From Squalus acanthias (taxonomy: Eukaryota), in the NCBI GenBank assembly GCA_030390025.1, contig CM059431.1:127660001-127724000 (forward strand): a DNA stretch of 64,000 bases. The letters run 5' to 3'. The position numbers and the translations under genes are program-made. Below are positions 1,615 through 62,450 of this stretch, one piece after another. Position 1 is the stretch's first letter, and every line of letters begins with the position of its first letter. A model generated the notes under the pieces. That model saw only the letters and a list, made by a program, of their open reading frames with translations, made no database searches and was not told the DNA's origin.

Positions 1615-2226
1615 ATTCAGAATCTATTTTGCCTGGAACATTAAAATCACAGTATTATGCATATTGAAGGTATATTCATTTCATCTTGAAAAATTGAGTA
1701 CAGAACATGTTTATGTACAAAGTAGAAGAAGTACTTTTGCCAGGTTTAACTAAATTGAATTGGAAACTCTATGAAAGACAAAATCTGTATTAGTCTTTTA
1801 CTAACCAACCTTAGAATTGCTATGCAGTCATTCCTGATTGCAAAGAGGAAGTAATATTTGACGGCAAATGAAACAATGAGTATTTGTCAGCTGTAATATT
1901 TGTCATGAGAGATTCTTTTTACTCCTATTTTGGCAGAGAAAATTGTACCTACTATAAAATGGGGCTGAGTTCCATGTCCCCACCCAATGGGCAGAAGAGG
2001 GCTGTATCATGATGAAAATGACAGTGCAGCATTTACTGTCCCGCTCCTGCCAGTGTCCAGCTTATCATCATTTTGGTGGGGGCATTGAAATGAATGACCC
2101 AGGCTTCCACAGCAAACAGATGTGAGCCTCATTAGTCCATGCAAATCAAGGTCTTACGATGCCAATAGGACCCTGAAGCAATTTGGAAGTACCAATAGAT
2201 GGAATGTGTGCCAGGCATGTTCATTA

Positions 2227-4094: not shown

Positions 4095-5985
4095 CTACTT
4101 TTTTTCATTCGGTTAAAGGCTGTGAGCGTCGCTGGCAAGGCCAGCATTTATTGCCCATCCCTAATTGCCCTTAAGCCGCTTTCTTGAACCACTGCAGTCC
4201 ACGATTGTAAGGGTTTCGTCGTGCCTGTGTCTCAGAGAGACGGTGCTGGTGCGAGGTTAGGCCTTCGTTGCCTAATACTATTGCTTGCTCTGGTCTCCGG
4301 CCAGCCTTTTTGCAATAAGCACCTGTGAGTGGTTCGACCCACTCGCCCTTACGGTTCTAACACTGGACTTAGGTGCAGGAGCAGTAATGCAGAGAAAACT
4401 CAAATAGACCCGGTTGAATAGTACGAAATGGAAATCTTTATTGCATAGCATCCAAAATCATGAAGTACATGTCATAGGCGCAAATTAACGAGAGTACAAG
4501 TATACATACATTCATAAAGCTTGGTCTATGGAAATGAAGAACGCACGGCACATCGTAAAAAGGGGAACACATTATACTTTAACCTAAATAACCACCCTCC
4601 CTTAACAATACCTACACTACGTCTAGATTTGTAGGATTGGAAAACATGCTCACCACTCGTGTTACTTCGGAGAATTTTAAAGTGAGGCACTCGGCTCGTT
4701 TCGCTGCAGCGCCTGACTGTCACATGTTTGGAAGGGTCTCTGTACCCACTTGTTTATTTTCGCTGCTGCGACAAGCAGGCCAGGCTCCCTGTTGTCATGA
4801 AGAACTTGACAGAAACTCGGACACAGTTCAAAGAAGAGTCTTCCTGTGCTCGACACCGGTTGTCGGTAGACTTCAATGAAAAGTTCTTTATTATATTTTC
4901 GGGCGCGGTCGGGGTTTACTGACCGTGGCGGCACGTGGATTCTTCTCCTCTTCTTCTCGTCTCGTCTCGTCTCTTCGGGCCTCCGGGTCCAGACACCGTT
5001 TACCGACACTCGGGATGGTGCACCCTGCTACTTGCCCTTGTCGGGGCGGCTCGTTCCGATTGAGCTCCACCCAACATTCGAATAACCGACCAGTGCGGCT
5101 AAAAGTCAAGAGTCAACAGAGTCCAGCCCTAAAGAAGAGCTTCAGCCAGCGGTTGAGCGAGTCAAGAGAATAAAAGTTCAGCAGTAAGCAGCGAGATAAG
5201 AGAATAAGAGTTCAGCCCGAGTCAAGAGGCCGATGGACATTTGTTCACTATAGTTATAGTGCTGTGTTCCCTTATCTCCCGCTCAAATCTTAATGTTTGT
5301 CCTTTGTGTAATACTGGTGCACAAAACTCCCAGCATGGGGCGATTCTTCTCTTTAACGGGTTTCGGTAGCACCTGAAACTGGCCAACTTCCCGTTAATGT
5401 TTTCCCCATTGTTGACCCAGCCAGGATTGTATGAATCGTCTCCCTGACTGGTTTTGGGGGGCCGCCGAATACTTGCTTAATCACCCGTCGATGTCTCTCT
5501 CATTGTAGAGCCGTGGGGGTATTTGTGTATTGATGTGTCTGGATGGGCCTTCGATTGCCCAGTACAATGATCCTTGCTTGTGCATGGAAAACGATTTCAG
5601 CACTTATATCTTTGCTATTGCTCCAAATGCAAACGGGTTGCATCCTGTCTTTATCAATGTTTACCGAGTATGATCCAATCTTATATTGAATGTTTATTCG
5701 ACGCCATCTTGTCTGCCCACTGTATTTCTGGAAGCTTCTGCCACGATGCTCGGCGGCCACTTTACAGGCTTCTGTGTACTTTATTATCAGGACAGCATTT
5801 CGTTTAATAAAACTGATCAAACGAATCTGTTTCTCTTATGTTATTTCGAATCGCGATAATTGCGAAACTTTACACGATATGTCTTTGTAGCAGTTTGGTA
5901 CAACTGAGTGGCTTGCTAGGCCAGAGGGCAGTTAAGAGTCAATCACATTGCTGTGGGTCTGGAGTCACATATAGGCCAGACCAGA
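4095..5985 (-). mobile_element. SINE-like internally deleted derivative of the tRNA-headed LINE, split by a solo LTR
   Basis: 4095-4205 matches the LINE 3' tail (GGCAAGGCCAGCATTTATTGCCCATCCCTAATTGCCC). 5879-5985 matches the LINE 5' core (GTAGCAGTTTGGTACAACTGAG...GGCCAGACCAG). No coding sequence lies between them once the LTR is removed. Confidence 0.75.
4206..5874 (-). mobile_element. Long solo LTR (1669 bp) with 4-bp TSD CGAT
   Basis: Termini TGTAAGGGTTTCG...CGAAACTTTACA (imperfect inverted repeat, TG...CA). CGAT at 4202-4205 and 5875-5878. Minus-strand AATAAA near 4437. Confidence 0.85.
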
Positions 5986-8696
5986 TTTTTTTTTTACTCG
6001 TTCCTGGGATATGGTCATCACTGGCAAGGCCAGCATTTATTGCCATTCACTAATTTCCCTTGAGAAGGTGGTGGTGAGCTGCCTTCTTGAACTGCTGCAG
6101 TCCGTGTGGTGAAGGTACGCCCACAGTGCTGTTAGGGAGGGAGTTCCAGGATTTTGACTCAGCGACGATGAAGGAACGCCGATATATTTCCAAGTCAGGA
6201 TGGTGTGTGACTTGGAGGGGAACTTGCAGCTGATGGTGTTCCCATGCGCTTGCTGCCCTTGTCCTTCTGGGTGGTAAAGGTCGCAGGTTGGGGAGGTGCT
6301 GCCGAAGAAGCCTTGACGAGTTTCTGCAGTGGATCTTGTAGATGGTGCACACTGCAGTCATGGTGCACCAATGGTGGAGGGAGTGAATGTTTAAGGTGGT
6401 GGAAGGGGTGCCAATCAAATGGGCTGCTTTGTCCTGGATGACGTCGAGCTTCTTGAGTGTTGTTGGAGCTGGACTCATCCAGGCAAGTGGAGAGTATTCC
6501 ATCACACTCCTGATTGGTGCCTTGTAGATGGTTGAAAGACACTGGGGAGTAAGGAGGTGAGACACTCGCCGCAGAATACCTAGCCTCTGACCTGCTCTTG
6601 TAGCTACAGTATTTATGTGGCTGGTCCAGTTAAGTTTCTGGTCAATGGTGACCCCCAGGATTTTGATGGTGGGGAAATTCGGCGATGGTAATGCCGTTGA
6701 ATGTCAAGGGGAGGTGATTAGACTCTCGCTTTTTGAAGACAGTCATTGCCTGGCACTTGTGTGGTGCGAATGTTATTTGACACTTGTCAGTCCAAGCCTG
6801 AATGTCGTCCAGGTCTTGCTGCATGTGGGCATGCATTGCTTCATTATCCGGGGAGTTGGCAATGGAACTGAACACTGTGCAATCATTTTGTCCATGTTTG
6901 GACCAAGGCTGTAATGAGGTCTGGAGCTGAGTGGCCCTAGAGGAACACAAACTGAGCGTCGGTGAGCAGGTTATTGGTGAGTAAGTGCCACATGATAGCA
7001 CTGTCAATGATACCTCCCATCACTTTGCTGAAGATTGAGAGTAGACTGATGGGGCAGTAATTGGCCAGATTGGATTTGTCCTCCTTTTTGTGGACAGGAC
7101 ATACCTAAGCAGTTTTCCACATTGTCGGTTGGATGCCAGTGTTGTAGCTGTACTGGAACACCTTGGCTAGAGGCGCAGCTAGTTCTGGAGTACAAGTCTT
7201 CAGCACGACAGCCGGGATGTTGTCGGGGCCCATCGCCTTTGCTGTATCTAGAGTACTCAGCTGTTTCTTGATATCACGTGGAATTAATCGAATTGGCTGA
7301 AGATTGGCTTCTATGATGGTGGGGACCTCAGGAGGAGGCCAATGTGGATCAACCACTCGGCACTTCTGGTTGAAGATGGTTGCAAATGTTTCAGCACTCT
7401 CGTGCTGGGCTCCACCATCATTGAGGATGGGGATATTCATGGAGCCTCCTCCTCCCGTTAGTTGTTTAATTGTCCACCACCATTCATTACTGAATGTGGC
7501 AGGACTGCAGAGCTTTGATCTGATCCGTTGATTGTGGGATCGCTTAACTCTGTCTATAGCATGCTGCTTCTGCTTTTTAGCATGTATGTAGTCCAGTGTT
7601 GCAACTTCCCCAGGTTAACACCTCATTTTTAGGTACGCCTGGTGCTGCTCCTAGCATGCTCTTCTACACTCCTTATTGAACCAGGGTTGGTCCCCTGGCT
7701 TTATGGTAATGGTAGAGTGAGGGATATGCCGGGCCATGAGGTTACAGATTGTGGTGGAATACAATTCTGCTGCTGCTGATGGCCCACAGCGCCTCATGGA
7801 TGGCCAGTTTTGTGCTGCTAAACCTGTTCTGAATCTATCCCAGTTGGCACGGTGGTAGTGCCACACAACACGATGGAGGGTATCCTCAGTGTGAAGATGT
7901 GACTTGTTCTCCATAATGACTGTGCGGTGGTCACTGCTACCAATGCTGTCATGGACAGATGCATCTGCGCCAGGTAGATTGGTGAGGATGAGGTCAAGTA
8001 GGTTTTTCCCTCGTGTTGGTTCTCTCTTAACTCCTGCCGCAGGCCGAGTCGGGCAGTTCTGTTCTTCAGGACTCGGCCAGCTCGGTCAGTAGTGGTGCAT
8101 TGAAGCCCCCCACCCAGAGTACATTCTGTGCCCTTGCTTCTTCCAAGTGGCGTTCAAAATGGAGGAGTACTGATTCATCAGCTGAGGGAGGGCGGTAGGT
8201 GGTAATCAGCAGGAGGTTTCCTTGCCCATGCTTGACCTGAAGCCGTGAGACTCCATGGGATCCAGAGTCAATGTTGAGGACTCCCAGGGCCACTCCTTCC
8301 CGACTGTATACCACTGTGCCGCCACCTCTGGTGGGACTGTCCTGTCGGTGGGACAGGACGTACCCAGGAATGGTGATGGAGGAGTTTGGGACATTGGTTG
8401 AAAGGTATGATTCTGTGTGTATAACTATATCAGGCTGTTGCTTGACTAATCTGTGGGACAGTTTTGGACAATTTTGGCACAGGTCCCCAGATGTTAGTGA
8501 GGAGGACTTTGTAGGGTCGACTTGGCTGGGTGTGCCGTTGTTGTGTCTGAAGCCAGTGCCTAGGTCAATGCCGGGTGGTCCGTCCAGTTTATTTCTTATT
8601 TTTCGTAGCAGTTTGGTACAACTGAGCAGCTTGCTAGGCCATTTCAGAGGGCAGTTAAGAGTCAACCACATTGTCTGGAAGTCACATATAGGCCAG

Positions 8697-9689
8697 TTTA
8701 TAGGCTGGTCTTCTCTGTCAGGCTATCTATCAACTGTTCCTGGTGATATGCCAACGCCATTGTATCTCTGGTTTCACTTATTTGAGACGATCCCTCTAAC
8801 TCTCTTAGAGAGTTCCCTACACAGTCTAAGCGACAATCACACGCGGTCAAACAAGTCTTCCCGGCTTTCACAACACCAAGGGCTGTATGACTCCCGCTCT
8901 GTGATCCCACTTCTGACACCACTGTAAGAATTGGATCACAGGTCACACACAGATTACCCAAAGGGTCTTAGGAGTCATAGGTCACTTGATTAAGGAGCGG
9001 CAGTTTAAGTTAAGTGCAACATGCAATAGTAGACATACAACCCATAACAGATGAAAGCGGTTTACCGGCCCCGGAATAGAAGGACGGACGTTGAGGCAGT
9101 ACGGTGGTCTCGGATTGGATCCCTGCAGACTACGATAGTGGTCTCTTCCTCTTTGGTCATCTCCCGAGGTTGGCGGAGGTGTTAGGTCCAAGCCAGCATG
9201 GAATCCACCTCAGAGGTTGAGCTTGAACAACTTGTTAAGCCGAAGCTAGCATGAGATCCACCCCAGAGGAAGCTCTCCACCTTTCTGCCTGTTTCTGGCT
9301 TTCGGCTGCCCATTTATATACCTTATTTCAGTGGGCCGGTGGCTGCCTCGCGTCAATCATTTTTACACATTCAATTGTCTAATTACAGAGGAGTAGATAC
9401 CTATTGCAGCCCCCTCCCAGCCTCAGGAGGTCATTTTCCTCCTTATCAGTGTCTGAATGTCTTGTTGCCCTTTCAAAAGACAGCTTGTTTATTTTTAAGG
9501 CTCCTTGCTAAATCCTTTATTAGCATAGCTATGCCTTGAAGGCCTGTTTTTGTGTTCTGACCTCGTAATTCAGCTCTATTTTTCTGTCACGACTGGAATC
9601 CCTCTGTATCATCAACTTAGGCAAACTGCTGATCTAGTGAACCCGTAACAGACTACAGTATTATTTCTTCCAATCCACAATTTCTTACA
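8697..9689 (-). mobile_element. LTR retroelement remnant: one LTR (8923-9689), PBS and ~200 bp internal sequence, flanked by GCCAG direct repeats
   Basis: LTR termini TGTAAGAATTGGA...TCCACAATTTCTTACA. TATA on the minus strand near 9315. GCCAG at 8692-8696 and 9690-9694. Confidence 0.8.
8904..8921 (-). promoter_or_regulatory. Primer binding site complementary to the tRNA-Leu 3' end
   Basis: Minus strand TGGTGTCAGAAGTGGGAT lies one base from the LTR end. The plus strand reads ATCCCACTTCTGACACCA, the 3' end of vertebrate tRNA-Leu including CCA. Confidence 0.85.
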
Positions 9690-9824
9690 GCCAGACCAGG
9701 TAAAGATGGCAGATTTCCTTCCCTAAAGGGCAGTAATGAATGGGTTTTTACGACTGTTTCATGATCACTAGCTTTTTATTCTAGTTTTATTTAACTAACT
9801 GAATTTAAATTCCCCAGCTGCCGT

Positions 9825-9890
9825 GGTGGGATTTTGAACTCATGTCTCTGGATTACTAGTCATGTAACGTAACCACTATGCTACCGCACC
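9825..9890 (-). promoter_or_regulatory. tRNA-derived Pol III internal promoter (A and B boxes) at the 5' end of LINE copy 1
   Basis: Minus strand A box TAGCATAGTGG (9883-9873) and B box GTTCAAAATCC (9839-9829). Confidence 0.75.
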
Positions 9891-18572: not shown

Positions 18573-18901
18573 CTGTTTAACCGTGCCGGGTTTGGGAACA
18601 TCCCAGTAACCCACTCTGGAGAGGTGGCCTTGTGATTCTAATATGTAAATGAGGTGTCGTTTCTCAGATTTTGGCAGCCATTTAAATTTAATGCTGGCCG
18701 ACCGGGTTTCAAAAGGCTCAGGAAACCCGGCAGCCAAAGTAAGGCGGGAGCTGAGCAATCCAGTAGGTAAGTGCTTTTTAGAGCACTGCTTGTGGGCCAG
18801 GAGGAGCAGGAGTGCTTCCGCAACCCCTCAAGCAAATCTTCTGCCACGATCTTCCCACCCTGCCAGCGATTGGCTGACCGCCGGCAATCTGCCGAACCTC
18901 C

Positions 18902-20452
18902 CCACCATGTCCCGATCTTTGCCTCCCACCCTCCTCACTACCATGCTCTGATCCCCATCCCCCCACCTCCCCAACCATGTCCCGATCTTTCCCTCCCACC
19001 CTCCTCACTACCATGCTCTGATCCCCATCCCCCCACCTCCCCACCATGTCCCGATCTTTCCCTCCCATCCTCCTCACTACCATGCTCTGATCCCCATCCC
19101 CCACTCCCCCAACCATGTCCCGATCTTTGCCTCCCACCCTCCTCACTACCATGCTCTGATCCCCATCCCCCCACCTCCCCACCATGTCCCGATCTTTGCC
19201 TCCCACCCTCCTCACTACCATGCTCTGATCCCCATCCCCCACTCCCCCAACCATGTCCCGATCTTTGCCTCCCACCCTCCTCACTACCATGCTTTGATCC
19301 CCATCCCCCCACCTCCCCACCATGTCCCGATCTTTCCCTCCCATCCTCCTCACTACCATGCTCTGATCCCCATCCCCCACTCCCCCAACCATGTCCCGAT
19401 CTTTGCCTCCCACCCTCCTCACTACCATGCTCTGATCCCCATCCCCCCACCTCCCCACCATGTCCTGATCTTTGCCTCCCACCCTCCTCACTACCATGCT
19501 CTGATCCCCATCCCCCACTCCCCCAACCATGTCCCGATCTTTGCCTCCCACCCTCCTCACTACCATGCTCTGATCCCCATCCCCCCACCTCCCCACCATG
19601 TCCCGATCTTTGCCTCCCACCCTCCTCACTACCATGCTCTGATCCCCATCCCCCACTCCCCCAACCATGTCCCGATCTTTCCCTCCCATCCTCCTCACTA
19701 CCATGCTCTGATCCCCATCCCCTCACCCCCCCCAACCATGTCCCGATCTTTCCCTCCCACCCTCCTCACTACCATGCTCTGATCCCCATCCCCCACTCCC
19801 CCAACCATGTCCCGATCTTTCCCTCCCATCCTCCTCACTACCATGCTCTGATCCCCATCCCCCACTCCCCCAACCATGTCCCGATCTTTGCCTCCCACCC
19901 TCCTCACTACCATGCTCTGATCCCCATCCCCCACTCCCCCAACCATGTCCCGATCTTTGCCTCCCACCCTCCTCACTACCATGCTCTGATCCCCATCCCC
20001 CACTCCCCCAACCATGTCCCGATCTTTCCCTCCCATCCTCCTCACTACAATGCTCTGATCCCCATCCCCCCACCTCCCCACCATGTCCCGATCTTTGCCT
20101 CCCACCCTCCTCACTACCATGCTCTGATCCCCATCCCCCCACCTCCCCACCATGTCCCGATCTTTCCCTCCCACCCTCCTCACTACCATGCTCTGATCCC
20201 CATCCCCCACTCCCCCAACCATGTCCCGATCTTTGCCTCCCACCCTCCTCACTACCATGCTCTGATCCCCATCCCCTCACCCCCCCCAACCATGTCCCGA
20301 TCTTTCCCTCCCATCCTCCTCACTACCATGCTCTGATCCCCATCCCCCACTCCCCCAACCATGTCCCGATCTTTCCCTCCCATCCTCCTCACTACCATGC
20401 TCTGATCCCCATCCCCTCACCCCCCCCAACCATGTCCCGATCTTTGCCTCCC
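18902..20452. repeat. Minisatellite, 69-bp unit, about 22 copies, C-rich plus strand
   Basis: Unit ATGTCCCGATCTTT(G/C)CCTCCCA(C/T)CCTCCTCACTACCATGCTCTGATCCCCATCCCCC...CC. 23-aa periodicity in the overlapping ORFs. Confidence 0.97.
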
Positions 20453-21249
20453 TCCCTCCTTGACATCGCGCTCCGAGACACCCCACATCACCACCACCAC
20501 CATGCCCCGATCTTCTCCGATTGCCGGGGACCGTCCCCAGTGGTCAGTGTAACATTAGCTCATTACTGCAACCAAATGTCAGTCCTGGACTACTGACGAC
20601 TGTGGTCACCCAGAACAGACCATGGAACATTAATGACTTAATGCCCGATTCACAAATACGAAGGAGGCATGACAGCGATACACTCCGCTATTCCTGACAC
20701 AATTATCTGGCTTAACCACCTAAATGTAAAATGTAGTTGTTGCTCTACATCTACATCAGCCATACAAAGTAGTAGTAGTAGAGGGCAAAGGCATAGTCAA
20801 ATCTGAGTTTATTACAATAACAGAAGCAAGTCAAAACAATGAGATGCAAATTAAGAGGTACCAGGTCTTGTGCAGCATCACTACTTACATTCTGCAGGTA
20901 GTAAGACACGCACGAGTAACAATCTACTGCCTAAAATGATTTACCTAATGGAAATCTATTTATGTTAAAGGAAGCATACTTAATCACAGATAGTGGAATG
21001 TCCTCATCACTGGCATGCGCAATGATTAAATGCTTCATGCTGGGTTTTATAAATGAGCCTCCATTCTCTTTTACAAAGCTTTCCAGGCTATCAATCTAGC
21101 AAATTAAATAAGTGCTGTGAAAATGATCTAAAGTGAATTCAACAGCTGAATTAAAAACAGAAAATGCTGGAATCAACAGTTGAAATGACTTGATTGAGGC
21201 CATTTGGGTTAACCCAGCAACACCTAACTATTGCCAAATTCAGACTACT

Positions 21250-41303: not shown

Positions 41304-44300
41304 GGCCTAGAAATTCAGCTCCATAGCAACTGGGTTTTCAGCGCTACGATTGCCGTTTTGTGTCCAAAATGGCACCCGAGCCGTATGCTCACAATTCTGG
41401 TGCGGGCCGCACTGGGAACCATCTTTTTTTAAATTCGCTTATGGGATCTGGGCGTCGCTGGCAAGGCCAGCATTTATTGCCCATCCCCAGTTGAAGTTGA
41501 ACCGCTGCAGTCCGTGTGGTGAAGGTACTCCCACAGTGCTGTTAGGGAGGGAGTTCCAGGATTTTGACCCAGAGAGGATGAAGGATCGACGCTTTACTTC
41601 TACGTTAGGATGGTGTGTGACTTGAAGGGGAATTTAGAGGTGGTGGTGTTCCCATGCGCCTGCTGCCCTTGTCCTTCTAGGTGGAAGAGGTCTGCGAGTT
41701 TGGGAGGTGCTGCCGAAGAAGCCTTGGCGAGTTGCTGCAGTGCGTCTTGTAGATGGTACACACTGCAGCCATAGTACGCCGGTGGTGGAGGGAATGAATG
41801 TTTAAGGTGGTGGATGGGGTGCCAATCAAACGGGCTGCTTTTTCCTGGATAGTGTCGAGATTCTTGAGTGTTGTTGCAGCTGCACTCATCCAGGCAAGTG
41901 GAGAGTATTCCATCACACTCCTTACTTGTGCCTCATAGATGGTGGAAAGGCTTTGGGGAGTCAGGAGGTGAGACATTCACAGCAGAATACCCAGCCTCTG
42001 ACCTGCTCTTGTTGCCACAGTATTTATGTGGCTGGTTCGGTAAAGTTTCTGGACAATGGTGACCCCCAGGATGTTGAGGGATTCGGCGATGGTAATGCCG
42101 TTGAATATCATGGGGAGGTGGTTCGACTCTCGCTTGTTGGAGATAGTCATTGCCTGGCACTTCTGTGGCGCGAATGTTACCTGCCAGATATCAGCCCAAG
42201 CCTGAACATCGTCCAGGTCTTGTTGCATGCGGGCATGGACTGTTCATTATCTGAGGAGTTGTGAATGGCGCTGAACACTGTGCAGTCATCAGCGAACATC
42301 CCCATTTCTGACCTTATGTTGGAGGGAAGGTCATTGATGAAGCAGCTGAAGATGGTTGGGCCTAGGATACTGCCTGAGCAACTCCTGCAGCGATGTCCTG
42401 GGGCTGTGATGATTGACCTTCAATCACCACAATCATCTCCCTTTGTGCTAGGTATGACTCCAGCCAGTGAAGCGTTTTCTCCCTGATTCCCATTGACTTT
42501 AGTTTTACTAGTGCTCCTTGATGCCACACTCGGTCAAATGCTGCCTTGATGTCAAGGGCAGTCACTCTCACCTCACCTCTAGAACTCAGCTCCTTTGTCC
42601 ATGTTTTGACCAAGGCTGTAACGAGGTCGGGAACCGAGTGGCCTTGGCGGAACCCAAACTGGGCATCAGTGAGCAGGATATTGGTGAGTAAGTGCCGCTT
42701 GATAATGATTGAGAGTAGACTGATGGGGTGGTAATTGGCCGGGTTGTATTTGTCCTGCTTCTTGTGGACAGGACATACCTGGGCACCTTTCCACATTGTC
42801 AGATAGATGCCAGTGTTGTAGCTGTACTGGAACAGCTTAGCTAATTCTGGAGCACAAGTCTTCAGCACGATTGCCGGGATCCATAGCCTTTTCTGTATCC
42901 AGTGCGCTCAGCCGTTTCTTGATATCACGTGGAGTGAATTGAATTGGCTGAAGACTGGCTTCAGGAGTAGGCCGATATGGATCATCCACTTGGCACTTTT
43001 GACTGAAGATGGTTGCAAACGCTTCAGCCTTGTCTTTTGCACTCACGTGCTGGGCTCCACCATCATTGAGGATATTCATGAAGCCCCCTCCTCCCGTTAG
43101 TTGTTGAATGGTCCACCACCATTCACAACTGGATGTGGCAGGACTGCAGAGCTTTGATCTGTCTATAGCATGCTGCTTCAGTTTTTTAGCCCTGTGTTGC
43201 AGCTTCTCCAGGTTGGCACCTCATTTTTAGGTACGCCTGGTGCTGCTCTTCTACACTCCTTATTGAACCAGGGGTTGGTCCCCTAGCTAGGTGGTAATGG
43301 TAGAGTGAGGGATGAGCCAGGCCATGAGGTTACAGATTGTGGTGGAATACAATTCTGCTGCTGCACAGCTGCCCAGTTTTGAGCTGCTTAGATCTGTTCT
43401 GAATCTATCCCATTTAGCACAGTGGTAGTGCCACACAACACGATGGAGGGTGTTCTCAGTGTGACTGTGCGGTGGTCACTGCTGCCAATACTGTCAAGTA
43501 GGTGTTGGTCCTCTCACCACCTGTCGCAGGCCCAGACTGGCAGTTATGTCCTTCATGACTCCGCCAGTAGTGGAACCACTCTTGGTGATGAACATTGAAG
43601 GTCCCCCACCCAGAGTACATTCTGTGCTTCTTCCAAGTGGTTTTCTACATGGAGGAGTACAGATTCATCAGCTGAGGGAGGGCAGTAGGTGATAATCAGC
43701 AGGAGGTATCCTTGCCCATGCTTGACCTGAAGCCGTGAGACTTCATGGGGTCCGGAGTCAATGTTGAGGACTCCCAGGTACACTCCACCCCTGGAGCCAG
43801 CAGGACAGGACATACCCAGGATGGTGATGGAGGAGCTTGGGACATTGGCTGAAATGAATGATTCTGGGAGTATGACTATGTCAGGCTGTTGCGTTCACAA
43901 TTTTGGCACAAGTCCCCAGATGTTGGTGAGGACTTTGCAGGGTTGCTCTGGGTTGGGTGTGCCGTTGCCGGTGTTGAGGTTGATGCCAGGTTTCATTCTT
44001 ATTATGTTTTGTAGCAGTTAGTTATAACTGAGTGGTTTGTTAGGCCATTTCAGAGAGCAGTTAAGAGTCAACCACATTGCTGTGGGTCTGGAGTCACATA
44101 TAGGCCAGACCAGGTAAGGATAGCAGATTCCCTTCCCTAAAGGACATTTACGACAATCCAATAGTTTCATGGTTGTCATCATTATTCCAGATTTATTTAA
44201 TTGAATCTAAATTCCCCAGCTGCCGTGGTGGGATTTGAACTCACGTCTCTGGATCATTAGTCCAGGCCTCAGGGATTACCAGCCCAGTGACATTACCACT

Positions 44301-44890
44301 ACGCTACCGTCCCACCTTGGTAAAAAGCCAAACAAGAGGCGTCCTTTATCCACATTTAAAGCAGGCATTATCCATTAACATATGCAAATAAGGGGCCCAA
44401 CGCCTGCTTCTGCTCCCTCTTGCAACTTTGGTTTGCATCTGAGGCAGTCAGCACCAGTGCTGTTTGCCTCCAGGAAAACCAACGCTAAACAGCACGGAAT
44501 TAAATAAAGGTCAGTACTTACCATAATCACCGGTCCCAAGATCTCCGACCTCACTCCCAACCCAAACTCCAGCCCCCTCCCCGACCTCCCCCCGGTCCCA
44601 GCCCCGACCTTCTAGCCCCCCTGACAGCACTCCCGACCCACCACCAATACTCCAGCCCAATGTTCCCTCTAACTTTTTTTTGGGGTCGCAAGGCCCATTC
44701 AAAAATCCGTGCATGCGTGGTTTTTACATTTAAAAGCTGGCGAGCCAGCTGTGCGAGAGCTCCCGGCCCCGGCCCCGGCCCCGAACTCCGAGCTCCCCAC
44801 CGACAGCACCTCCGACCCCCCCCCCGGCCCCGCCAATCTCCCTCCTGCCCCGGCCCGGCCTCCTAATGGCTGCGATCGAATTTCTAGTCC
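41304..44890. mobile_element. MITE split by the LINE at 41424-44313
   Basis: TIRs GGCCTAGAAATTC / GAATTTCTAGTCC (12/13). Confidence 0.6.
41424..44313 (-). mobile_element. Compact APE-RT LINE, copy 2, near full length with tRNA-like 5' head
   Basis: ALDIKAAFDRVWH, QFGFRQGHS, MFADDCT (by reading 42280-42300), YCPPSADES. A box TAGCGTAGTGG (44306-44296) and B box GTTCAAATCC (44240-44231). Confidence 0.92.
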
Positions 44891-45815: not shown

Positions 45816-47469
45816 CTCTCTCCACAGATGCTGCCTGACCTGCTGAGTGTTTCCAGCACTTTCTGGTTTTATTACTTCAATCGGGTCCTATGCCGTAGGA
45901 CCTTTGACGCAATATTGTTGATCCAGTGGTCGCAGTGCGCACTCCGTCTAGTGGAACTGAGAGTGTTCAGCCAAATAACCAGTGGCCCTTAAAGAGACCA
46001 TTGTAAGACACTCCAAAATACCCAAAGAAAAAGTGGTGCCACTGATTATTGTGGGGCTGGGAGGACCCCCAATGCCAGGTTCGTTGTGTGTTCACCCCCT
46101 CTCCAGGATAGCTCTCCCCCCTGCCCCCTTTAAAGGCTCCGCAGAGGAACCATCAAATTTCCCATCCCACCTGATCTGCAGCTCGCCAATCAAACTAGAG
46201 GCTCAACCACAATGCGATCACTCCTCCCACTGAGCGCCCGATGTGCAGACAAACCGACAAGTGGCCCCTGTACTTCCGAAATCCACAAGATGTGCACAGC
46301 TCTTAACCAGCAGGCAGTCAAATACCTGGCTGTTTCCTGCCGCCATGTTCTTGGAATGCCTTTTATCGAATGGCAGTTAATGCATTCTTACCTCAGAGAT
46401 TATACATGGAGTGTGTTCAGGAATAAAAAAAGATATGACTGTTACAGACAATCCATTACTTTTCTACTGAACCATTATAACAGGGTGGGAGGGTAGCGTA
46501 AGCATTCCTCATACAGACCCATTACTTTTATCCGCGGCTGACAGAGTAGTCATTACCATTAATGACAATAGCTATTCCCAGCAAACCACAATATTCAGTG
46601 TTTTGACAAGGAGTAAGTCAAGTTGGTGGTGATGTCGTACAGGTATACACGTCTAGTAATGTATTTGTCATTATTTATGTTATTTAAAAGACAGAAACGA
46701 TCTGCTTCAAAAAATAAACTGTACTTATATTTTATCAAACAGATTAAAGTAAGGGGGATGAACATCTGCTATAAAGAGCAACACTCTACACATTGAATTA
46801 AATATGGATGGCTACAGAACTGCTTCGTGAATCAACATTTGATTTTTTTCTCACCAGCCTTTCAATGGGCAGATAGTTAGATATGGGTGGCTGTCTGCTT
46901 AATGTATCATTTATTTCATTTCGCCTCTACAGGGAGGGAGAGAATGGTTCTTATAAAATGTTCATAACACTGCTACACATGTTGATTTTAACTCTGAGCA
47001 GGTTTCAGGCGAGCAGTGGACAGGGTGAATTTTTTATTTATTTATTTTTTTAAATTCGTTTTTTATGGGATGTGGGCATCGCTGGCAAGACCAGCATTTA
47101 TTGCCCATCCCTAATTGCCCTTGAGAAGGTGGTGCTGAGCGGCCTTCTTGAACCGCTGCAGTGCAAATAATGTTATGAGGCTCCTGCCTGCTTCCAGCGG
47201 GTGCCTCACCCACTGAACTGGTGGCCAGTGCAATTCCAGTAGCGTTGGGACAGTAAGATTGAACACCCCATTTTAAAGAACACTCTCCCCAGTCCCACCG
47301 GGCGGGGTGGGTTCAAATTCTCTCTGCAGTGTGGGTGAAAAGCCCACACTACCAGTGCTACAATATTTTATTTAAGGAACTGAAAATCAGTAATTAAAAG
47401 ACACTGACAAACTCATCCTTTTTCAAATTGGTGGAAGATATATTGTTGCTGGGACACAATCTATATATA

Positions 47470-48259: not shown

Positions 48260-49962
48260 TTCTTTTCATTCGTTCACGGGATCTGGGCGTCACTGGCAAG
48301 GCCAGCATTTATTGCCCATGCCTAATTGCCCTTCAGAAGGTGGTGGTGAGCCGCCTTCTTGAACCGCTGCAGTCCGTGTGGTAAAGGTACTCCCACAGTG
48401 CTGTTAGGTAGGGAATTCCAGGAATTCGACCCAGTGACGATGAAGGAATGGCGATATATTTCCAAGTCAGGATGGTGTGTGACTTGGAGGGGAACTTGCA
48501 AGTGATGTTGTTCCCATGCGCTTGCTGCCCTTGTCCTTCTAGGTGGTAGAGGTTATGGGCTTGGGAAGTGCAGTCGAAGAAGCCTTGGCGAGTTGCTGCA
48601 GTGCATCTTGTAGATGGTACACACTGCAGCCATGGTGCACCAGTGGTGGAGGGAGTGAATGTCTAAGGTGGTAAATGGGATGCCAATCAACCAAGCTGCT
48701 TTGTCCTGGATGGTGTCGAGCTTCTTGAGTGTTGTTGAAGTTGCACTCATACAGGCAAGTGGAGAGTATTCCATCAAACTCCTGACTTGTTTCAGGAGGT
48801 GAGTCCTGAGTTGCTGCACAATACACAGCCTCTGACCTGCTCTTGTAGCCACAGTATTTATGTGGCTCGTCCAGTTAAGTTTCTGGACAATGGTGATGAC
48901 CAGGATGTTGATGGTGGGGGATTCGATGATGGTAATGCCATTGAATGTCAAGGGGAGGTGGTTAGACTCTCTCTTGTTTGAAACAGTCATTGCCTGGCAC
49001 TTGTGTGGCGCGAATGTTACTTGCCACTTTTCAGCCCAAGCCTGAATGTTGTCCAGGTTTTGCTGCATGTAGGCATGGACTGCTTCATTATCTGAGGAGT
49101 TGCGAATGGAACTGAACCCTGTGCAATCATCAGCGAACATCCCCACTTCTGATCTTATGATGGAGGGAAGGTCATTGATGAAGCAGCTGAAGATGGTTGG
49201 GCCTAGGACACTGCCCTGAGGAACTCCTGCAGTGATGTCCTGGGGCTGAGATGATTGGCTTCCAACAACCACAACCATTTTCCTTTGTGCTAGGTATGAC
49301 TCCAGCCAGTGGAGAGTTTTCCCCCTGATTCCCAATTACTTCAATTTTACTTGGGCTCCTTGATGCCACACTCGGTCAAATGTTGCCTTGATGTCAAAGG
49401 CAGTCACGCTCACATCACCTCTGGAATTCAGCTCTTTTGTCCATGTTTGGACTAAGGCTGTAATGAGGTATGGAGCAGAGTGGTCCTGGCAGAACCCGAA
49501 CTGAGCATCGGTGAGTAGGCTATTGGTGAGTAAGTGATATCACTGTCAACGACACCTTCCATCACTTTGCTGACGATTGAGAGTAGATTGATGTGGCAGA
49601 AATTGGCCGGGTTGGATTTGTCCTGCTTTTTGTGGAAAGGGCAGTTTTCCACATTGTCGGATAGATGCCAGTGTTGTAGCGTTACTGGAACAGCTTGTCT
49701 AAAGGCACACCTAGTTCTGGATCACGTCTTTAGCACGACAGCCTGGCTATTGTCGGGGCCTATAGCTTTTGCTGTATCCTGTGCGCTCAGCCGTTTCTTG
49801 ATATCATGTAGACTGATCGAATTGGCTGAATACTGGCTTCTGTGATGGTGGGGACCTCAGGAGGAACAGCAAAGGTTCCCACAGGGCCTCATGTACGCCC
49901 AGTTTTGAGCTGCTAGATCTATTCTGAATCTATCCCATTTAGCACAGTGGTAGTGCCACACA
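48260..49962 (-). mobile_element. Compact APE-RT LINE, copy 3, 5'-truncated
   Basis: ORF 48553-49335 GVPQGSVLGPTIFSCFINDLP...MFADDCT...WQVTFAPHKC. Confidence 0.92.
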
Positions 49963-50973: not shown

Positions 50974-51624
50974 TATAGGCCTTCTTTACTGCTCTATCCA
51001 CTTGAGTGGCAACCTTCAGAGATCTGTGGATATGAACCCCCAGATCCCTCTGTTCCTCCACGTTCCTCAGAACCCTGCCGTTGACCCTGTAATCCTTATT
51101 CAAATTTGCCCTACCAAAATGAATCACCTCACACTTATCAGGGTTAAATTCCATCTGCCATTTTTCGGCCCAGCTCTGCATCCTATCAATGTCTCTTTGC
51201 AGCCTACAACAGCCCTCCACCTCATCCACTACTCCACCAACAATACGATGGAGCATGTCATCAGTCTGAAGAAGGCACTTTGGGCTATAAATTCATTATA
51301 GCCCAGGAATGGACGGTATCAGTAGAAAAGTTGGAGAATTAGCGCCAGGCGCTAATTCTTTAGACTGCATGCAAAATTTGTGCTCACTGCTCAGAAAAAT
51401 GATTGGAGTCCTAATTCAAGCCTTAAAGCCCAAGTTCATTGGCGTTACACTCAATATCAGCTGCAGTCTAATTACAAATCAAGATTGCCACAGGCTTTTT
51501 CTGTACTTCAAGGGGAGGCTCATTGATGCTGCAGCACCTCATTCTCAGTGTTGCTGACTGTGCAGCTGTCTCAGCAAGCAGAAGCACAAGGAGAAGGAGT
51601 CAGAAGACTGAAGCAGGTGTACTC

Positions 51625-52727
51625 ATGGCAGATCCACGTCCCAGGGAGAGAGCCCGCAGATTCACTGATCAAGCATTGGAGGCATTGGTTTTCGCTGTGG
51701 AGAGACGGAGGGTGGTGCTCTACCCGACAAGAGGCAGGAGGCCCTCACCGCATTTCTTCCGCAACATGTGGAGGGACATAGCGCAACACATCTTGGGCAG
51801 CACTGTGGTCCCCAGGACCCACACACAGTGCAGGAAGAAATTTAATGATCTCACTCGGGTGGTCAGTGTGAGTGAATGCTTCAACAAATGCTACATACCA
51901 CCATCTGAACTTCAGTCTACACACACTGCCCAAAGCACCACACCCCCAGCATTCACCCACTAACAATCTCTACCTACCTAAACTCACATCCACATCTCAC
52001 ACCTTGCACAAAATGGCAGCTATTCAACTATGGGAGGCACATCATGCAAACACATTGCTCCACACAATTTGTGTCAGCTGTGGCTCAGTGGTAGCACTCT
52101 TGCCTGTGAGTCCGACAGTTATGGGTTCAAGTCCCACTCCAGGAACTTGAGCACAAAAATCTAGGCTGACACTCCAGTGCAGTGCTGAGGGAGTGTTGCA
52201 TTGTCAGGAGGTGCTTTCTTTTGGATGAGATGTTAAACCAAGGCCCCGTCTGCTCTCTCAAATGGACGTAAAAGATCCCATGGCACTATTTCAAACAAGA
52301 GCAGGGGAGGTATCCCCGGTGTCCTGGCCAATATTTATCCCTCAATCAACATAACAAAAACAGATTATCTGGTCATTATCACATTGTTGTTTGTGGGAGC
52401 TTGCTGTATGCAAATTGGCTGCCACGTTTCCCACATTACAACATTGACTACACTCCAAAAGTACTTAATTGGCAGTAAAAAAGCGCTTTGAGACATCCGG
52501 TGGTCGTGAAAGGCGCTATATAAATGCAAGTCTTTCTTTTTTCTTTCTTTCACACTCACTCACACACTTTCCTTTCTCTTGCAGGCCAAGGTGGCTAACC
52601 ATAGGACAGAGCAGGAGGGAGCAGGCTGGGGACAAGCCGACACCCAACCACTGCCTGCGCTGGAGAATAGAGTGCTGCAGATTATTGGGCACCAGGTGGT
52701 GGGTGCCGTGGCCACCGGCAATGTACG
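51625..52727 (+). pseudogene. Harbinger Myb/SANT-like gene, type 1 (exons 51625-51867 and 52585-52727)
   Basis: MADPRPRERARRFTDQALEALV...WRDIA...RTHTQCRKKFNDL. gtgagt donor and ttgcag acceptor. Exon 2 AKVANHRTEQ...LENRVLQIIG. Confidence 0.85.
52071..52550 (+). mobile_element. Full-length tRNA-derived Deu-domain SINE (SacSINE1-like) in the Myb intron
   Basis: A box TGGCTCAGTGG and B box GGTTCAAGTCC. Central GATGAGATGTTAAACC...AAAAGATCCCATGGCACTATTT. L2-type tail with (TTTC)n. Confidence 0.85.
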
Positions 52728-55074: not shown

Positions 55075-56170
55075 TTAAGCAAATCTGGCCATGATGAGGC
55101 CATCCCTGGCCTCCCGGGCAGCAATGTGCATTGCTGCTGGTGCCATGCCATCTCCACCTCAGGTTCCTCCTCCTCCTCCTCATCGTCTTCCACCTGCTCC
55201 TACTACTCCTCCTCCTCCTCCTCTGAAGAGGCTGTGCGCTCTGTGCCTTGCTCCTCCTGCAGCTCCTATCCTCGCTGCTGCGCTATGTTGTGCAGCGCGC
55301 AGCAAACGATGATGATTCTGGAGACCCTGGCTGGTGCGTACTGCCAGATCCTCCAGATCTGTCAAGGCATCTGAAGCGCATCTTCAGCCGGTAAGTCTGT
55401 TTGTCGGTGCGAAGAGCTGAGGGAGGGTGGACTGGCGCAGCACGAAAGAGTCATGACAGCTGCCAGGGAATCTGGCGCACACATGCATGATGATCTTTTT
55501 ACGGTTGCAGACGAGCTGCACATTGAGGGAGTGGAAGGCCTTACTGTTGACAAACACTCCTGGGTGATGAGGGGATGCCTTGATGACCACATGTGTGCAG
55601 TTGATGACACCCTGTATCTGTGGGAAGCCAGCCAGAGCTGCAAAGCCGAGCGCCCGCTCAGTAACACTGGCTTCACAGTTTACATAATTGTCTGACTGGT
55701 CAAACATGGCATCGGTCACCTGGGTGATGCATCTGTGGGCGGCCGACTGCAATATCCCACAAATGTCTGCTGCAGATCCCTGGAAGGAGCCTGAGGCGAA
55801 GAAGTTGAGGGCGGTGGTGACTTTGATAGCCATTAGTAAGGCATGTCCACCAGGTCCTCTGGGCAGGAGGTTTTGTTCCAACAAGCTACAAATGTCTGTG
55901 ACGACCTGGCGTGATTGCCTGAGCCTCCTTTGGCACTGCTGTTCAGTCATGTCCAGGAAGCTCATCCTCTGCCTGTATACCCTGTGTTGGGGGTATCACC
56001 TCCGGTGCGGTGCAGCCCTGTGCTGATCACCTCGCTCCTGTGGAACATCAAGTCGCTGAGGAGAAGGCTGCTGTTGTGACTGCTGCTGCTGCTGGTGCTG
56101 CTGGTGTTGGTGTTGGGGCTCATCTTGGTCTGATTGCGGTCCAAGGTGAGAGAACATAAGCGGCACCCAT
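55075..56170 (-). pseudogene. HARBI1-like Harbinger transposase with internal deletion
   Basis: ORF 55384-55965: [45 protein letters not shown]. The GDxGY-to-E segment is missing. Acidic C-terminal tail. Confidence 0.92.
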
Positions 56171-56719: not shown

Positions 56720-56808
56720 AAATCTCCGGATCATTAGTTCAGGCTTCTGGAATACTAGTCCAGTAACATAACCACTATGCTACTGTACCCTGTACCATAC
56801 CGTACGGG

Positions 56809-61153: not shown

Positions 61154-62450
61154 TAGAATCATAGAATTATAGAATGGTTACAGCACAGAAGGAGGCCATT
61201 CGGCTCATCGAGCCCGTGCCGGCTCATTGCAAGAGCACTTCAGCTAGTCCCACTCCCCCGCCCTTTCCCTGTAGCCCTGAATTTTTTTTTCCTTCAGGTA
61301 CTTATCCAACTCCCTTTTGAAAGCCGTGATTGAATCTGACTCTACCACCCTTTCAGGCAGTGCATGCCAGATCCTAACCACTCACTGCGTAAAAAAGGTT
61401 TTCCTCATGTCGCCTTTGGTTCTTCTGCTAATCACCTTAAATCTGTGTCCTCTGGTTCTCGACCCTTCCGCCAATGGGAACAGTTTCTCTCTCTCTAATC
61501 TGTCCAGACCCCTCATGATTTTGAACACCTCTATCAAGTCTCCTCTCAATCTTCTCTGCTCTAAGGAGAACAACCCCAGTTTCTCCAGTCTAGCCACATA
61601 ACTGAAGTCCTGCATCCCTGGAATCATTCTCGTAAATCTTTTCTGCACCCTCTCTAAGGCCTTCACATCCTTCCTAAAGTGCGGTGCCCAGAATTGGATA
61701 CAATACTCCAGTTGAAGCCAAACCAATATTTTATAAAGGTTCATCATAATTTCCACGCTTTTGTACTCTATACCTCTATTCATGAAGCCCAAGATCCCGT
61801 AAGCTTTTTTAACTGCTTTCTCAACCTGCCCTGCCACCTTCAACGATTTGTGTACATATACCCCCAGGTCTCTCTGTTTATGCACCCCCTTTAGGATTGT
61901 ACCCTTTAGTTTATATTCCTCTCTTCATTCTTTCTACCAAAATGTATCACTTCACACTTTTCTGCGTTAAATTTCATCTGCCACGTGTCTGCCCATTCCA
62001 CCAGCCTGTCTATGTTCTCTTGAAGTCTATCACTATCCTCCTCACTGTTCACTATACTTCCAAGTTTTGTGTCATCTGCAAATTTTGAAATTGTACCCTG
62101 TACACCCACATCCAAGTCATTAATATATATCAAGAAAAGCAGTGGTCCTAGAACCAATCCCTGGGGAACACCACTGTGTACCTTCCTCCAGTCTGAAAAA
62201 CAACTGTTCATCACTACTCTCTGTTTCCTGTCACTTAGCCAATTTCGTATCCATGCTGCCACTATCCCTTTTATTCCATGGGCTTCAACTTTGCTGGCCA
62301 GCCTATTATGTTGCACTTTGTTGAACGTCTTTTGGAAATCCATGTACACTACATCAACCGCATTGCCCTCATCAACCCTCTGTTACCTCATCAAAAAACT
62401 CGATCAAGTTGGTTAAACACGATTTTCCTTTAACAAACCGTGTTTGGCTT
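61154..62450 (-). mobile_element. CR1 LINE RT and 3' end
   Basis: SGVPQGLVLGPLLFLIYINDL, KFADDTKLG, LERVQKRFTRMIPG; tail (ATAGAAT)n. Confidence 0.93.

What the first reader, a model, noticed from the sequence alone, without database searches (positions are those of the whole stretch)
41424..44313. Candidate Pol III-transcribed autonomous LINE: tRNA head plus ~3 kb coding body with no TTTT terminator
Seen: the 5' end is tRNA-like (A box 44306-44296, B box 44240-44231). After a non-coding core of a few hundred bases the APE endonuclease begins, leaving no room for ORF1. Scanning by eye for sense-strand TTTT (AAAA on plus), I find none in this copy (~2.9 kb) and none in copy 3 (48260-49962). Copy 1 has one (8156-8159), at a site where copy 2 lacks it, so it is probably a later mutation. 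Even TTT is scarce, whereas sense AAAA runs are common and neighbouring CR1 copies have many sense TTTT. Established: vertebrate Pol III terminates at runs of four or more T, and LINEs normally use Pol II. Inference: the RT-coding RNA was made by Pol III and selected against terminators, which would also imply an unusual, cap-independent route to translation. The family may already be catalogued; the terminator depletion is the point to test.
Basis: partly seen in the sequence, partly recalled or inferred. Interest (0 to 1): 0.85.

Follow-up and report, generated by a model that had tools for sequence, protein, structure and literature searches.

The report
LINE retrotransposon with SINE-type tRNA head
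This is a decayed copy of an abundant 3.3 kb jumping gene that codes for its own copying enzymes yet begins like a short SINE, with a tRNA-derived RNA polymerase III promoter, and almost wholly lacks that polymerase's stop signal, so it may be a protein-coding element transcribed by the 'wrong' polymerase.

Summary
Window 44313-41424 (minus strand) is one decayed copy of a large family of about 3.3 kb. Each full copy has a tRNA-derived head with A and B boxes, a non-coding core of about 260 nt, one APE+RT ORF of about 960 codons, a hairpin 3' UTR of about 54 nt and a GAAT(T)n(A)n tail. There is no room for ORF1.

The head belongs to the family. 20 of 29 loci picked by the endonuclease region alone start within 10 nt of head +1, and none runs further upstream. 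43 head-starting copies have unrelated upstream flanks.

No internal sense-strand T4 is ancestral. I found 15 T4+ runs in 141,778 nt of copies, each in at most 3 of about 51 copies. Composition predicts about 181 in 129,934 nt. Other LINEs are not depleted: 15 from this genome scored 40 against 24.9 expected, and 33 long relatives carry 5-43 each.

The caveat is that TT and TTT are also depleted. Dinucleotide, trinucleotide and codon-preserving shuffles therefore expect only 1.8, 0.9 and 1.9 per copy. One lineage cannot settle the question.

Pol III transcription is the best reading, at about 0.45, but it is not shown. A SINE form that lacks the ORF coexists with the LINE. I found no paper describing such a LINE.

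The parts
41424..44313 (-). Copy 2 (W2). One decayed, head-to-tail copy of the family, 2890 nt, with many small deletions. The family's full length is about 3.15-3.3 kb.
   Evidence: It is 88-92% identical at aligned positions to 9 other full-length copies.
44228..44313 (-). tRNA-derived head. The 5' terminus of the element coincides with tRNA position -1/+1.
   Evidence: Rfam tRNA 21.7 bits, E=0.05. 43 copies start here with unrelated upstream flanks.
44296..44306 (-). A box-like motif TAGCGTAGTGG.
   Evidence: The consensus TRGCNNAGTGG is recalled, not taken from a tool.
44231..44240 (-). B box-like motif GTTCAAATCC.
   Evidence: The consensus GGTTCGANNCC is recalled.
43997..44227 (-). Non-coding core, the rest of the 5' UTR. 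It is shared with the short SINE form and carries several upstream ATGs and one AATAAA (44197-44192).
   Evidence: Its identity as the 'Deu' SINE domain is recalled, not tested.
43994..43996 (-). Start codon of the single ORF (MKPG...), in frame with the APE N-terminus in this copy.
   Evidence: Read; position.
43440..43960 (-). Apurinic/apyrimidinic-type endonuclease domain, broken by frameshifts. Limits are approximate.
   Evidence: Pfam Exo_endo_phos_2 and Exo_endo_phos on the equivalent ORFs of L023 and L019. Mapped through.
42170..42920 (-). Reverse transcriptase domain with an FADD motif at 42296-42285. Limits are approximate.
   Evidence: Pfam RVT_1 on window:42362-42907 and on L010, L017 and L021.
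41443..41487 (-). 3' UTR hairpin (GGGATGGGC ... GCCCAGATCCC) with AATAAA in its loop region (41478-41473).
   Evidence: Fold z-score is only -1.4 to -1.5.
41424..41437 (-). Tail CGAATTTAAAAAAA. Across copies it reads GAAT(T)1-5(A)n.
   Evidence: T4-T5 in 6 of 27 3' ends.
6005..8696 (-). Copy 1 body (reference 242-2104 and 2408-3288). It has one private sense T4.
9689..9861 (-). Head/core fragment (reference 51-247), probably copy 1's 5' end split from its body by a foreign insertion of about 1 kb.
   Evidence: That it belongs to copy 1 is an inference.
48268..49863 (-). Copy 3, 5'-truncated (reference 1657-3297), with no sense T4.
5878..5984 (-). Isolated core fragment (reference 237-347).
56723..56789 (-). 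Isolated head fragment (reference 1-67).
47063..47165 (-). Isolated 3' tail (reference 3189-3291).
4107..4201 (-). Older, diverged 3' tail (76% identity).

Best explanation
Shown: this is a single-ORF (APE+RT) LINE family whose 5' UTR is the front of a tRNA-derived SINE, a head with A and B boxes plus a conserved core. The whole 3.3 kb unit retrotransposes as one piece. The template RNA begins at tRNA position -1/+1 and ends at a GAAT(T)n(A)n tail. A short SINE form, made of the 5' UTR plus the last 80-130 nt, and internal-deletion derivatives coexist with it.

Inferred: RNA polymerase III makes the full-length RNA, starting from the internal type-2 promoter in the head. That promoter travels with every full-length copy, so each copy can be transcribed wherever it lands. 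The polymerase can cross 3.3 kb because the sense strand has been kept free of T4 terminators. It stops at the terminal T-run where one is present (T4-5 in 6 of 27 ends) or at the first T-run in the flank.

The T-run followed by an A-run, with AATAAA 41 nt upstream, resembles the 3' end of mammalian T+ SINEs, whose Pol III transcripts become polyadenylated. Translation of the single ORF, which lies behind a 353-nt UTR with about 9 upstream ATGs, would then need a non-canonical, cap-independent route.

The likely origin is a 5'-end switch in which a LINE acquired its partner SINE's front. The converse is also possible: the SINE may be this LINE's ORF-deleted derivative.
For: The head belongs to the family:
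- The head-to-APE junction recurs genome-wide.
- 20 of 29 loci chosen with an APE-only query start within 10 nt of head +1. The other 9 are truncated at positions 33-419, and none extends upstream.
- 43 head-starting copies have upstream flanks with 0 mutual BLAST hits.
- 38 of 40 further head hits begin at query positions 9-25, where head +1 is position 18.
- A and B boxes are present, and the head has a weak Rfam tRNA match.

Coding content:
- One ORF with APE and RT and no room for ORF1.

T4 depletion:
- 15 T4+ runs in 141,778 nt over 80 pieces, at 11 sites, each held by at most 3 of about 51 copies. The source sequence therefore had none.
- 13 observed against 181 expected from composition in 129,934 nt. 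For A4 the figures are 624 against 622.
- Other LINE ORFs of the same genome: 40 against 24.9 expected in 9,711 nt.
- 80 related LINE ORF regions from metagenomes: 1119 observed against 919 (mononucleotide), 1015 (k=2) and 1071 (k=3) expected. Only 1 of 80 has a ratio below 0.25.
- All 33 relatives of 2,400 nt or more carry 5-43 T4. Two relatives of like composition (L105, L123) have ratios of 2.6 and 1.7.
- None of the 80 has the A/B-box pattern that detects this head.
- The depletion grows with run length: rho(TT) 0.81, rho(TTT) 0.43. TTT/(TTT+TTC) is 0.19 against 0.36 for other NNT/NNY pairs. In control LINEs the figures are 1.10, 1.44 and 0.71 against 0.61.

Other support:
- Terminal T4-5 followed by an A-run in 6 of 27 ends.
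- The SINE form appears as joints that skip about 2.9 kb in contigs of 4 runs from 4 organisms, and as L027.
- In the human L1 system, Pol III-made templates did not need ORF1p (Kroutter 2009, PMC2666806, abstract read).
Against: - There is no RNA, polymerase-occupancy or 5'-end chemistry evidence. The only runs available are contigs of guessed type.
- The copies share one ancestry (median 94% identity to one copy), so the T4 result is in effect one 3.3 kb sequence.
- Against nulls that keep dinucleotides, trinucleotides or codons, the expected counts are only 1.8, 0.86 and 1.9 per copy against 0 in the source. P(0) is then about 0.15 to 0.4.
- The family is C-rich at all three codon positions. 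Part of the T-run deficit may therefore be general composition.
- 21 of 27 3' ends have only T1-T3.
- An AATAAA near the 3' end plus an A-tail is also what a Pol II mRNA would show.
- From recall, no natural Pol III transcript of this length, and none that codes for protein, is known.
- The head does not fold as a cloverleaf.
- No intact ORF was seen. The longest was 313 aa among the 14 copies tabulated, so the family may be extinct.
Confidence: 0.45

Rival explanations
1. This is a Pol II LINE with a borrowed SINE front. The head plus core serves as an ordinary 5' UTR and internal Pol II promoter that starts transcription at or near position +1. The A and B boxes are inherited baggage, or drive only short Pol III RNAs. 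The T-run deficit is a by-product of C-rich, T-poor codon usage.
For: - LINEs are normally transcribed by Pol II and often switch 5' ends (Kojima 2018, PMC5786205, passages read; bioRxiv 10.1101/2022.11.04.512097, passages read).
- AATAAA lies 41 nt before an A-tail.
- Shuffles that preserve dinucleotides, trinucleotides or codons expect only 0.9-1.9 T4 per copy.
- C is high at all codon positions.
- About 36 of 43 copies have a G just before GGAACGG (counted by eye). This could be a copied cap G, although it could equally belong to the element.
Against: - It does not explain why T-runs specifically fade with length while A-runs sit at expectation.
- It does not explain why relatives of the same composition keep normal T4 counts.
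- Two AATAAA within the first 140 nt of the reference copy and about 9 upstream ATGs sit badly with a scanned Pol II mRNA.
- The 5' end is sharp and falls where a type-2 Pol III promoter would start.
Confidence: 0.33
2. The head is a processing signal. Copies are co-transcribed with host or flanking Pol II units, and RNase P cuts at the tRNA-like head to create the element's exact 5' end. This would parallel the HDV-like ribozymes at the 5' ends of R2, RTE and L1Tc.
For: - The 5' end falls at tRNA -1/+1 in 43 copies.
- Ribozyme-defined 5' ends in other LINEs give a precedent (abstracts of PMC3383444 and PMC3414825, seen in the listings).
Against: - The head is a poor tRNA. It scores 21.7 bits against a gathering score of 29, ARAGORN finds none, and there is no acceptor-stem pairing or cloverleaf in the fold.
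- RNase Z would be expected to cut the head off the body, yet copies keep it.
- The model gives no reason for the T4 depletion.
Confidence: 0.08
3. The arrangement is chance adjacency or a one-off chimera: a SINE happened to insert next to a 5'-truncated LINE in this window.
For: A single copy viewed alone cannot exclude it.
Against: The same junction recurs at many chromosomal sites with unrelated flanks. 10 uninterrupted full-length copies are 88-95% identical along their whole length, head included.
Confidence: 0.01

Closest known systems
tRNA-derived Deu-SINEs of cartilaginous fish and coelacanth (SacSINE1, LmeSINE1) and their L2/CR1-type partner LINE (L2-2_CM; 'CR1-4_DR-like')
   Same: Both have a tRNA head with A and B boxes, a conserved core and a LINE-type 3' tail. 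The short form seen here (5' UTR plus the last 80-130 nt) has exactly that layout. SacSINE1 is reported in sharks (Luchetti 2017, PMC5499810, passages read; Ohshima 2013, PMC3747384, table read).
   Different: Here the head and core are joined to a 960-codon APE+RT ORF. Those papers report only tail homology between SINE and LINE. That this core is the Deu domain is my recall. No reference sequence was available, and a 24-nt word search of papers found nothing.
Bipartite non-autonomous LINEs and SINEs whose bodies derive from LINE 5' UTRs (RTE: Bov-tA, AfroSINE; Vingi: SINE2-1_ACar, SINE2-1_AMi)
   Same: The SINE body equals the LINE 5' part and the SINE tail equals the LINE 3' part. The parent LINEs have a single ORF of about 3-4 kb and produce internal-deletion derivatives (Kojima 2018, PMC5786205). 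L005 and L006 are such derivatives here.
   Different: In those cases the tRNA head sits only on the SINE, and the autonomous LINE is assumed to be Pol II-transcribed. Here the autonomous element itself carries the head. Kojima states that no LINE match to the widely conserved SINE bodies had been found.
RTE-1_DAn and relatives (LINEs noted to contain a tRNA-like sequence)
   Same: A tRNA-like sequence lies inside an autonomous LINE entry (one sentence in Kojima 2018).
   Different: That paper treats these as nuisance hits and gives no position, function or T-run analysis. They belong to a different clade and host, as the name suggests.
T+ SINEs of mammals (B2, Dip, Ves)
   Same: AATAAA, then a short T-run terminator, then an A-rich tail at the 3' end. 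Their Pol III transcripts are polyadenylated (PMC8466645, abstract seen in the listing).
   Different: Those are short, non-coding and L1-dependent. Here only 6 of 27 ends have T4-5, and polyadenylation is untested.
Small-RNA-promoter LTR elements (Cassandra, Helenus, Ajax)
   Same: Retroelements longer than SINEs that carry a 5S or tRNA Pol III promoter (Kojima 2024, PMC10886601, passages read).
   Different: Those are non-autonomous LTR elements without an RT gene.

Membership tests
APE-type non-LTR retrotransposon (LINE) | Encodes an apurinic-type endonuclease and a reverse transcriptase on one strand. | tested here: met
   Pfam Exo_endo_phos_2 (5.5e-13) and RVT_1 (down to 2.2e-27) on ORF pieces of L023, L019, L010, L017, L021 and the window copy.
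APE-type non-LTR retrotransposon (LINE) | Many copies share the 3' end and are truncated at varied 5' positions. | tested here: met
   39 of 40 non-self places in the main alignments lack the 5' part; 9 of 29 are truncated at positions 33-419. Contig depth rises towards the 3' end in 4 runs.
APE-type non-LTR retrotransposon (LINE) | Target-site duplications flank the copy. | tested here: inconclusive
   4 of 14 copies (L015, L017, L011, L016) show abutting 7-10 bp repeats. The longest-shared-word statistic is not above the mismatched-pair null.
tRNA-derived SINE (SINE2) | 5' head derived from tRNA, with A and B boxes. | tested here: met
   The Rfam score is below the gathering threshold, and the box consensus is recalled.
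tRNA-derived SINE (SINE2) | Short (under about 0.7 kb) and non-coding. | tested here: not met
   The element is about 3.3 kb with an APE+RT ORF of about 960 codons. Only the deleted form fits.
Deu-SINE superfamily / SacSINE1 | Core similar to the Deu domain consensus. | not testable with these tools
   No Repbase, Dfam or SINEBase sequence is held. The supplements of PMC5499810 were unavailable and a word search found nothing. The resemblance is recalled.
L2/CR1-group LINE | The RT groups with L2/CR1 in a phylogeny. | not tested
   No reference RT sequences were available. The best database relatives (43-50% identity, single ORFs of 908-993 aa on contigs mostly of 3.3-4.0 kb) are unnamed.
L2/CR1-group LINE | Conserved 3' UTR stem-loop recognised by the RT. 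| tested here: inconclusive
   A hairpin is predicted in two copies, with z-scores of only -1.4 and -1.5.
Type-2 RNA polymerase III transcription unit | Internal A and B boxes at a workable spacing, with the RNA start just upstream of the A box. | tested here: met
   The A box starts at about element position 8 and the B box at about position 71. Copies start 7-8 nt before the A box. The start is inferred from DNA copies, not from RNA.
Type-2 RNA polymerase III transcription unit | No internal run of four or more T on the sense strand. | tested here: met
   No T4 site is held by more than 3 of about 51 copies.
Type-2 RNA polymerase III transcription unit | T-run terminator at the 3' end. | tested here: inconclusive
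   T4-T5 in 6 of 27 3' ends and T1-T3 in most others.
Type-2 RNA polymerase III transcription unit | Pol III occupancy, inhibitor sensitivity and a 5' triphosphate. | not testable with these tools
   No run is on record as RNA. Contigs cannot show starts.

The most novel reading that the evidence does not exclude
An autonomous vertebrate LINE is transcribed end to end by RNA polymerase III from a tRNA-type promoter. It would be a natural protein-coding Pol III transcript of 3.3 kb. The widely conserved 'Deu' SINE body would then be this LINE's 5' UTR, and Deu-type SINEs would arise simply by loss of the ORF. That would explain both the unknown origin of a conserved SINE body and why ORF1 is dispensable.
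Probability: 0.3. Interest if true: 0.9.

Novelty: new variant of a known kind. Interest (0 to 1): 0.72.

Why it matters
LINEs are taken to be Pol II elements and SINEs to be Pol III parasites that borrow LINE proteins. A LINE that carries the SINE-type promoter blurs that division. It would give every full-length copy a portable promoter. It would imply translation of an uncapped Pol III RNA. It also offers a concrete, testable origin for a conserved SINE body whose source Kojima (2018) calls completely unknown.

Even if Pol II makes the RNA, the family shows that a LINE and its SINE can be the same element with and without the ORF. The Pol III idea can be tested directly in shark cells or by reporter assays.

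Tried and rejected
- RNA evidence. The look-up of sequencing runs listed no holder on record as RNA. Contigs of 4 runs of guessed type, from 4 coded organisms, cover 29 of 30 bins and show the ORF-less joints. They cannot show starts, strand or expression.
- ARAGORN found no tRNA in the window or in 60 of the 80 metagenome loci. It also misses this head, so that blank says little.
I did not ask again, so 3' ends and whole-copy counts rest on the loci already held.
- I looked for independent head-bearing lineages. The 80 metagenome relatives share 25-42% protein identity with the query. None has the A/B-box pattern on the sense strand, though many contigs lack their 5' ends. One partial contig (L112) is T4-free over its 1.86 kb of ORF, with four T4 just after it. 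Its 5' end is missing, so it is only a lead.
- Older pieces in the held loci (84-91% identity) also carry 0-1 T4, but they are not independent lineages.
- Deu identity. A 24-nt word search of papers found nothing, and the supplements of PMC5499810 are not held.
- Earlier scan notes held nothing relevant for this genome or sequence.
- Literature searches for a Pol III-driven or tRNA-headed autonomous LINE found none. Only the remark on RTE-1_DAn came up. Repbase and Dfam could not be searched, so the family may be catalogued there.
- The TSD statistic was not above its null.
- The chance-adjacency reading is rejected.
Full report
WHAT IS THERE

The window lies in a 3.7 Gb genome. On the minus strand, 44313-41424 reads as follows:
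- a tRNA-like head, with the A box TAGCGTAGTGG at 44306-44296 and the B box GTTCAAATCC at 44240-44231;
- a non-coding core;
- an ATG at 43996-43994;
- a broken APE and RT reading frame;
- a short hairpin 3' UTR containing AATAAA;
- the tail CGAATTTAAAAAAA.

Rfam matches tRNA at 21.7 bits (E=0.05), below the gathering score. ARAGORN calls nothing. Pfam confirms Exo_endo_phos_2/Exo_endo_phos and RVT_1 in this copy and in better-preserved copies.

In the reference copy (L023:1972-5268) the ORF opens at about 354 and stops at about 3241. That leaves a 353-nt 5' UTR and a 54-nt 3' UTR, with no room for ORF1.

THE HEAD IS PART OF THE ELEMENT

A query from the head to the APE finds many places in the genome that align across the junction. 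Of the 20 regions fetched, 13 held copies aligning from the head to the 3' end; 9 of these were uninterrupted and 4 carried foreign insertions.

Ten uninterrupted copies, the window copy included, are 88-95% identical at aligned positions, evenly along their length and including the head. The low BLAST identities of the window copy come from its many small deletions.

I then made a test that does not select for the head. A 601-nt query from the APE region alone gave 29 independent loci:
- 20 begin within 10 nt of head +1;
- 9 are truncated at positions 33-419;
- none continues upstream.

43 head-starting copies have upstream flanks with no similarity to one another. 38 of 40 further head matches begin at the same place. 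The RNA template therefore began at tRNA position -1/+1. Two loci (L005, L006) are internal-deletion derivatives that keep the head.

A SINE FORM

One locus (L027) holds reference 48-327 joined to 3196-3288.

Contigs from four public runs of four coded organisms cover the family in 29 of 30 bins. They show many joints from about 289-327 to about 3193-3244, which skip the ORF. Depth is much higher over the core and the tail.

The LINE and a SINE of the layout head + core + tail are thus the same element with and without the ORF. SacSINE1, a tRNA + Deu + L2-type-tail SINE, is reported in sharks (PMC5499810; PMC3747384). That the core here is the Deu domain is my recollection and could not be tested.

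T-RUN DEPLETION

The window copy has no sense T4 between 44313 and 41424. The nearest runs lie 13 nt upstream and 55 nt downstream.

Within the family:
- Over 80 family pieces (141,778 nt) there are 15 T4+ runs at 11 sites. Each is held by at most 3 of about 51 copies, and they sit at CTTT or TTTC contexts. The source sequence therefore had none.
- Copy 1's T4 is one of these private changes.
- In 129,934 nt, T4+ is 13 against 181 expected from base frequency. A is 624 against 622, C is 357 against 571 and G is 360 against 279.

Compared with other LINEs:
- Fifteen ORF fragments of other LINE families of this genome (25-35% protein identity where a match was found, 3 with none) have 40 against 24.9 expected.
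- Eighty related LINE ORF regions from metagenome contigs have 1119 against 919 expected.
- Only 1 of those 80 has a ratio below 0.25.
- All 33 regions of 2,400 nt or more carry 5-43 T4.
- Two relatives of the same T and C content have ratios of 1.7 and 2.6.
- None of the 80 shows the A/B-box pattern that detects this head.

THE CAVEAT

The family is also poor in TT and TTT: rho is 0.81 and 0.43, against 1.10 and 1.44 in controls. TTT is avoided among Phe codons (5 of 27). C is high at every codon position.

Shuffles that keep these features therefore expect few T4:
- 4.33 per copy for mononucleotides;
- 1.80 for dinucleotides;
- 0.86 for trinucleotides;
- 1.9 for synonymous-codon or codon-order shuffles, with a summed observation of 5 against 19.3 and 18.9 over ten related copies.

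The copies descend from one source (median 94% identity). The test is therefore one sequence with 0 against 0.9-4.3 expected. That is suggestive under strict nulls. It is striking only against composition and against other LINEs. The graded loss of T-runs with length, at normal A-run frequency, is what selection against Pol III terminators would produce. A general C-for-T codon bias is not excluded.

THE 3' END

In 27 3' ends the tail reads GAA-T(1-5)-A(n). T4 or T5 occurs in 6 of them (L009, L019, L006, L007, L026, L049), T3 in 4, and T1-2 in most others. With AATAAA 41 nt upstream, this resembles the T+ SINE arrangement of signal, terminator and A-tail. It is equally compatible with ordinary polyadenylation. 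TSDs are seen in 4 of 14 copies, and the statistic is not above its null.

MECHANISM

Three routes can give an RNA that starts exactly at the head:
- Pol III initiation from the A and B boxes;
- an internal Pol II promoter that fires at the same point;
- RNase P-type trimming of read-through RNA.

The head is a poor tRNA fold, which weakens the third route. Only the first route predicts the T-run pattern. It also fits the lack of ORF1, given that Pol III-made templates were ORF1-independent in the L1 system (PMC2666806, abstract). I put Pol III at about 0.45, Pol II at about 0.33 and processing at about 0.08. The translation route is pure inference. About 9 upstream ATGs in the UTR argue against simple scanning.

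NOVELTY

Kojima (2018) found LINE 5' parts in SINE bodies only for RTE and Vingi. He calls the origin of the conserved SINE bodies unknown and assumes Pol II for autonomous LINEs. [quoted passage not shown] Four literature searches found no autonomous LINE described with a functional tRNA-type head. Repbase and Dfam could not be consulted. 5'-end switching of LINEs is known in plants.

LIMITS

- No intact ORF was seen.
- The LINE clade was not determined.
That step is referred.

Noticed in passing
window 18896-20460: A C-rich tandem array of a 69-bp unit, 22.6 copies at 93% match. It explains the long spurious ORFs on both strands and the GC skew of -0.49 there.
   Followed up: partly
window 51472-51960 (+) and 55387-55995 (-): ORFs with a Myb/SANT-like DNA-binding domain (PF13873) and a DDE_Tnp_4 transposase domain (PF13359). 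These are remnants of a Harbinger/PIF-type DNA transposon. Similar Myb-like ORFs occur in L026 and L045.
   Followed up: no
window 2550-2987 (-) and 61385-62382 (-): RT fragments of other LINE families, 31-35% identical to this family's RT, with ordinary numbers of sense T4 (3 in 438 nt and 3 in 474 nt).
   Followed up: partly
L112 (metagenome contig, 2037 nt): A related LINE (38-44% RT identity) with no sense T4 over its 1.86 kb of ORF and four T4 runs directly after the ORF. Its 5' end is missing. It may be a second T4-free lineage.
   Followed up: partly
proteins P0001-P0009: The closest database relatives (43-50% identity over the RT) are mostly unnamed single ORFs of 908-993 aa, most on contigs of only 3.3-4.0 kb. 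That is the same compact one-ORF layout. Their DNA could not be fetched to look for heads.
   Followed up: no
L005 and L006 (own genome): Head-bearing internal-deletion derivatives of the LINE. In L006, reference 1-555 is joined to 1962-3291. These are intermediates between the LINE and the SINE form.
   Followed up: partly
5' junctions of L030, L051, L052, L058 and others: Several copies carry an extra (G)AACG just before GGAACGG. This looks like a short duplication of the element's own 5' end, perhaps from slippage or microhomology at the end of reverse transcription.
   Followed up: no
3' flanks of L023, L024 and L011: T6-T9 runs lie within a few bases after the tail in some copies. This may reflect a preference for A/T-run targets, and it would also supply a Pol III terminator.
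   Followed up: no
L023 reference positions about 360-420: A CpG-rich, CGG/CGGC-repetitive stretch lies directly after the start codon. In the window copy it is largely decayed or deleted.
   Followed up: no
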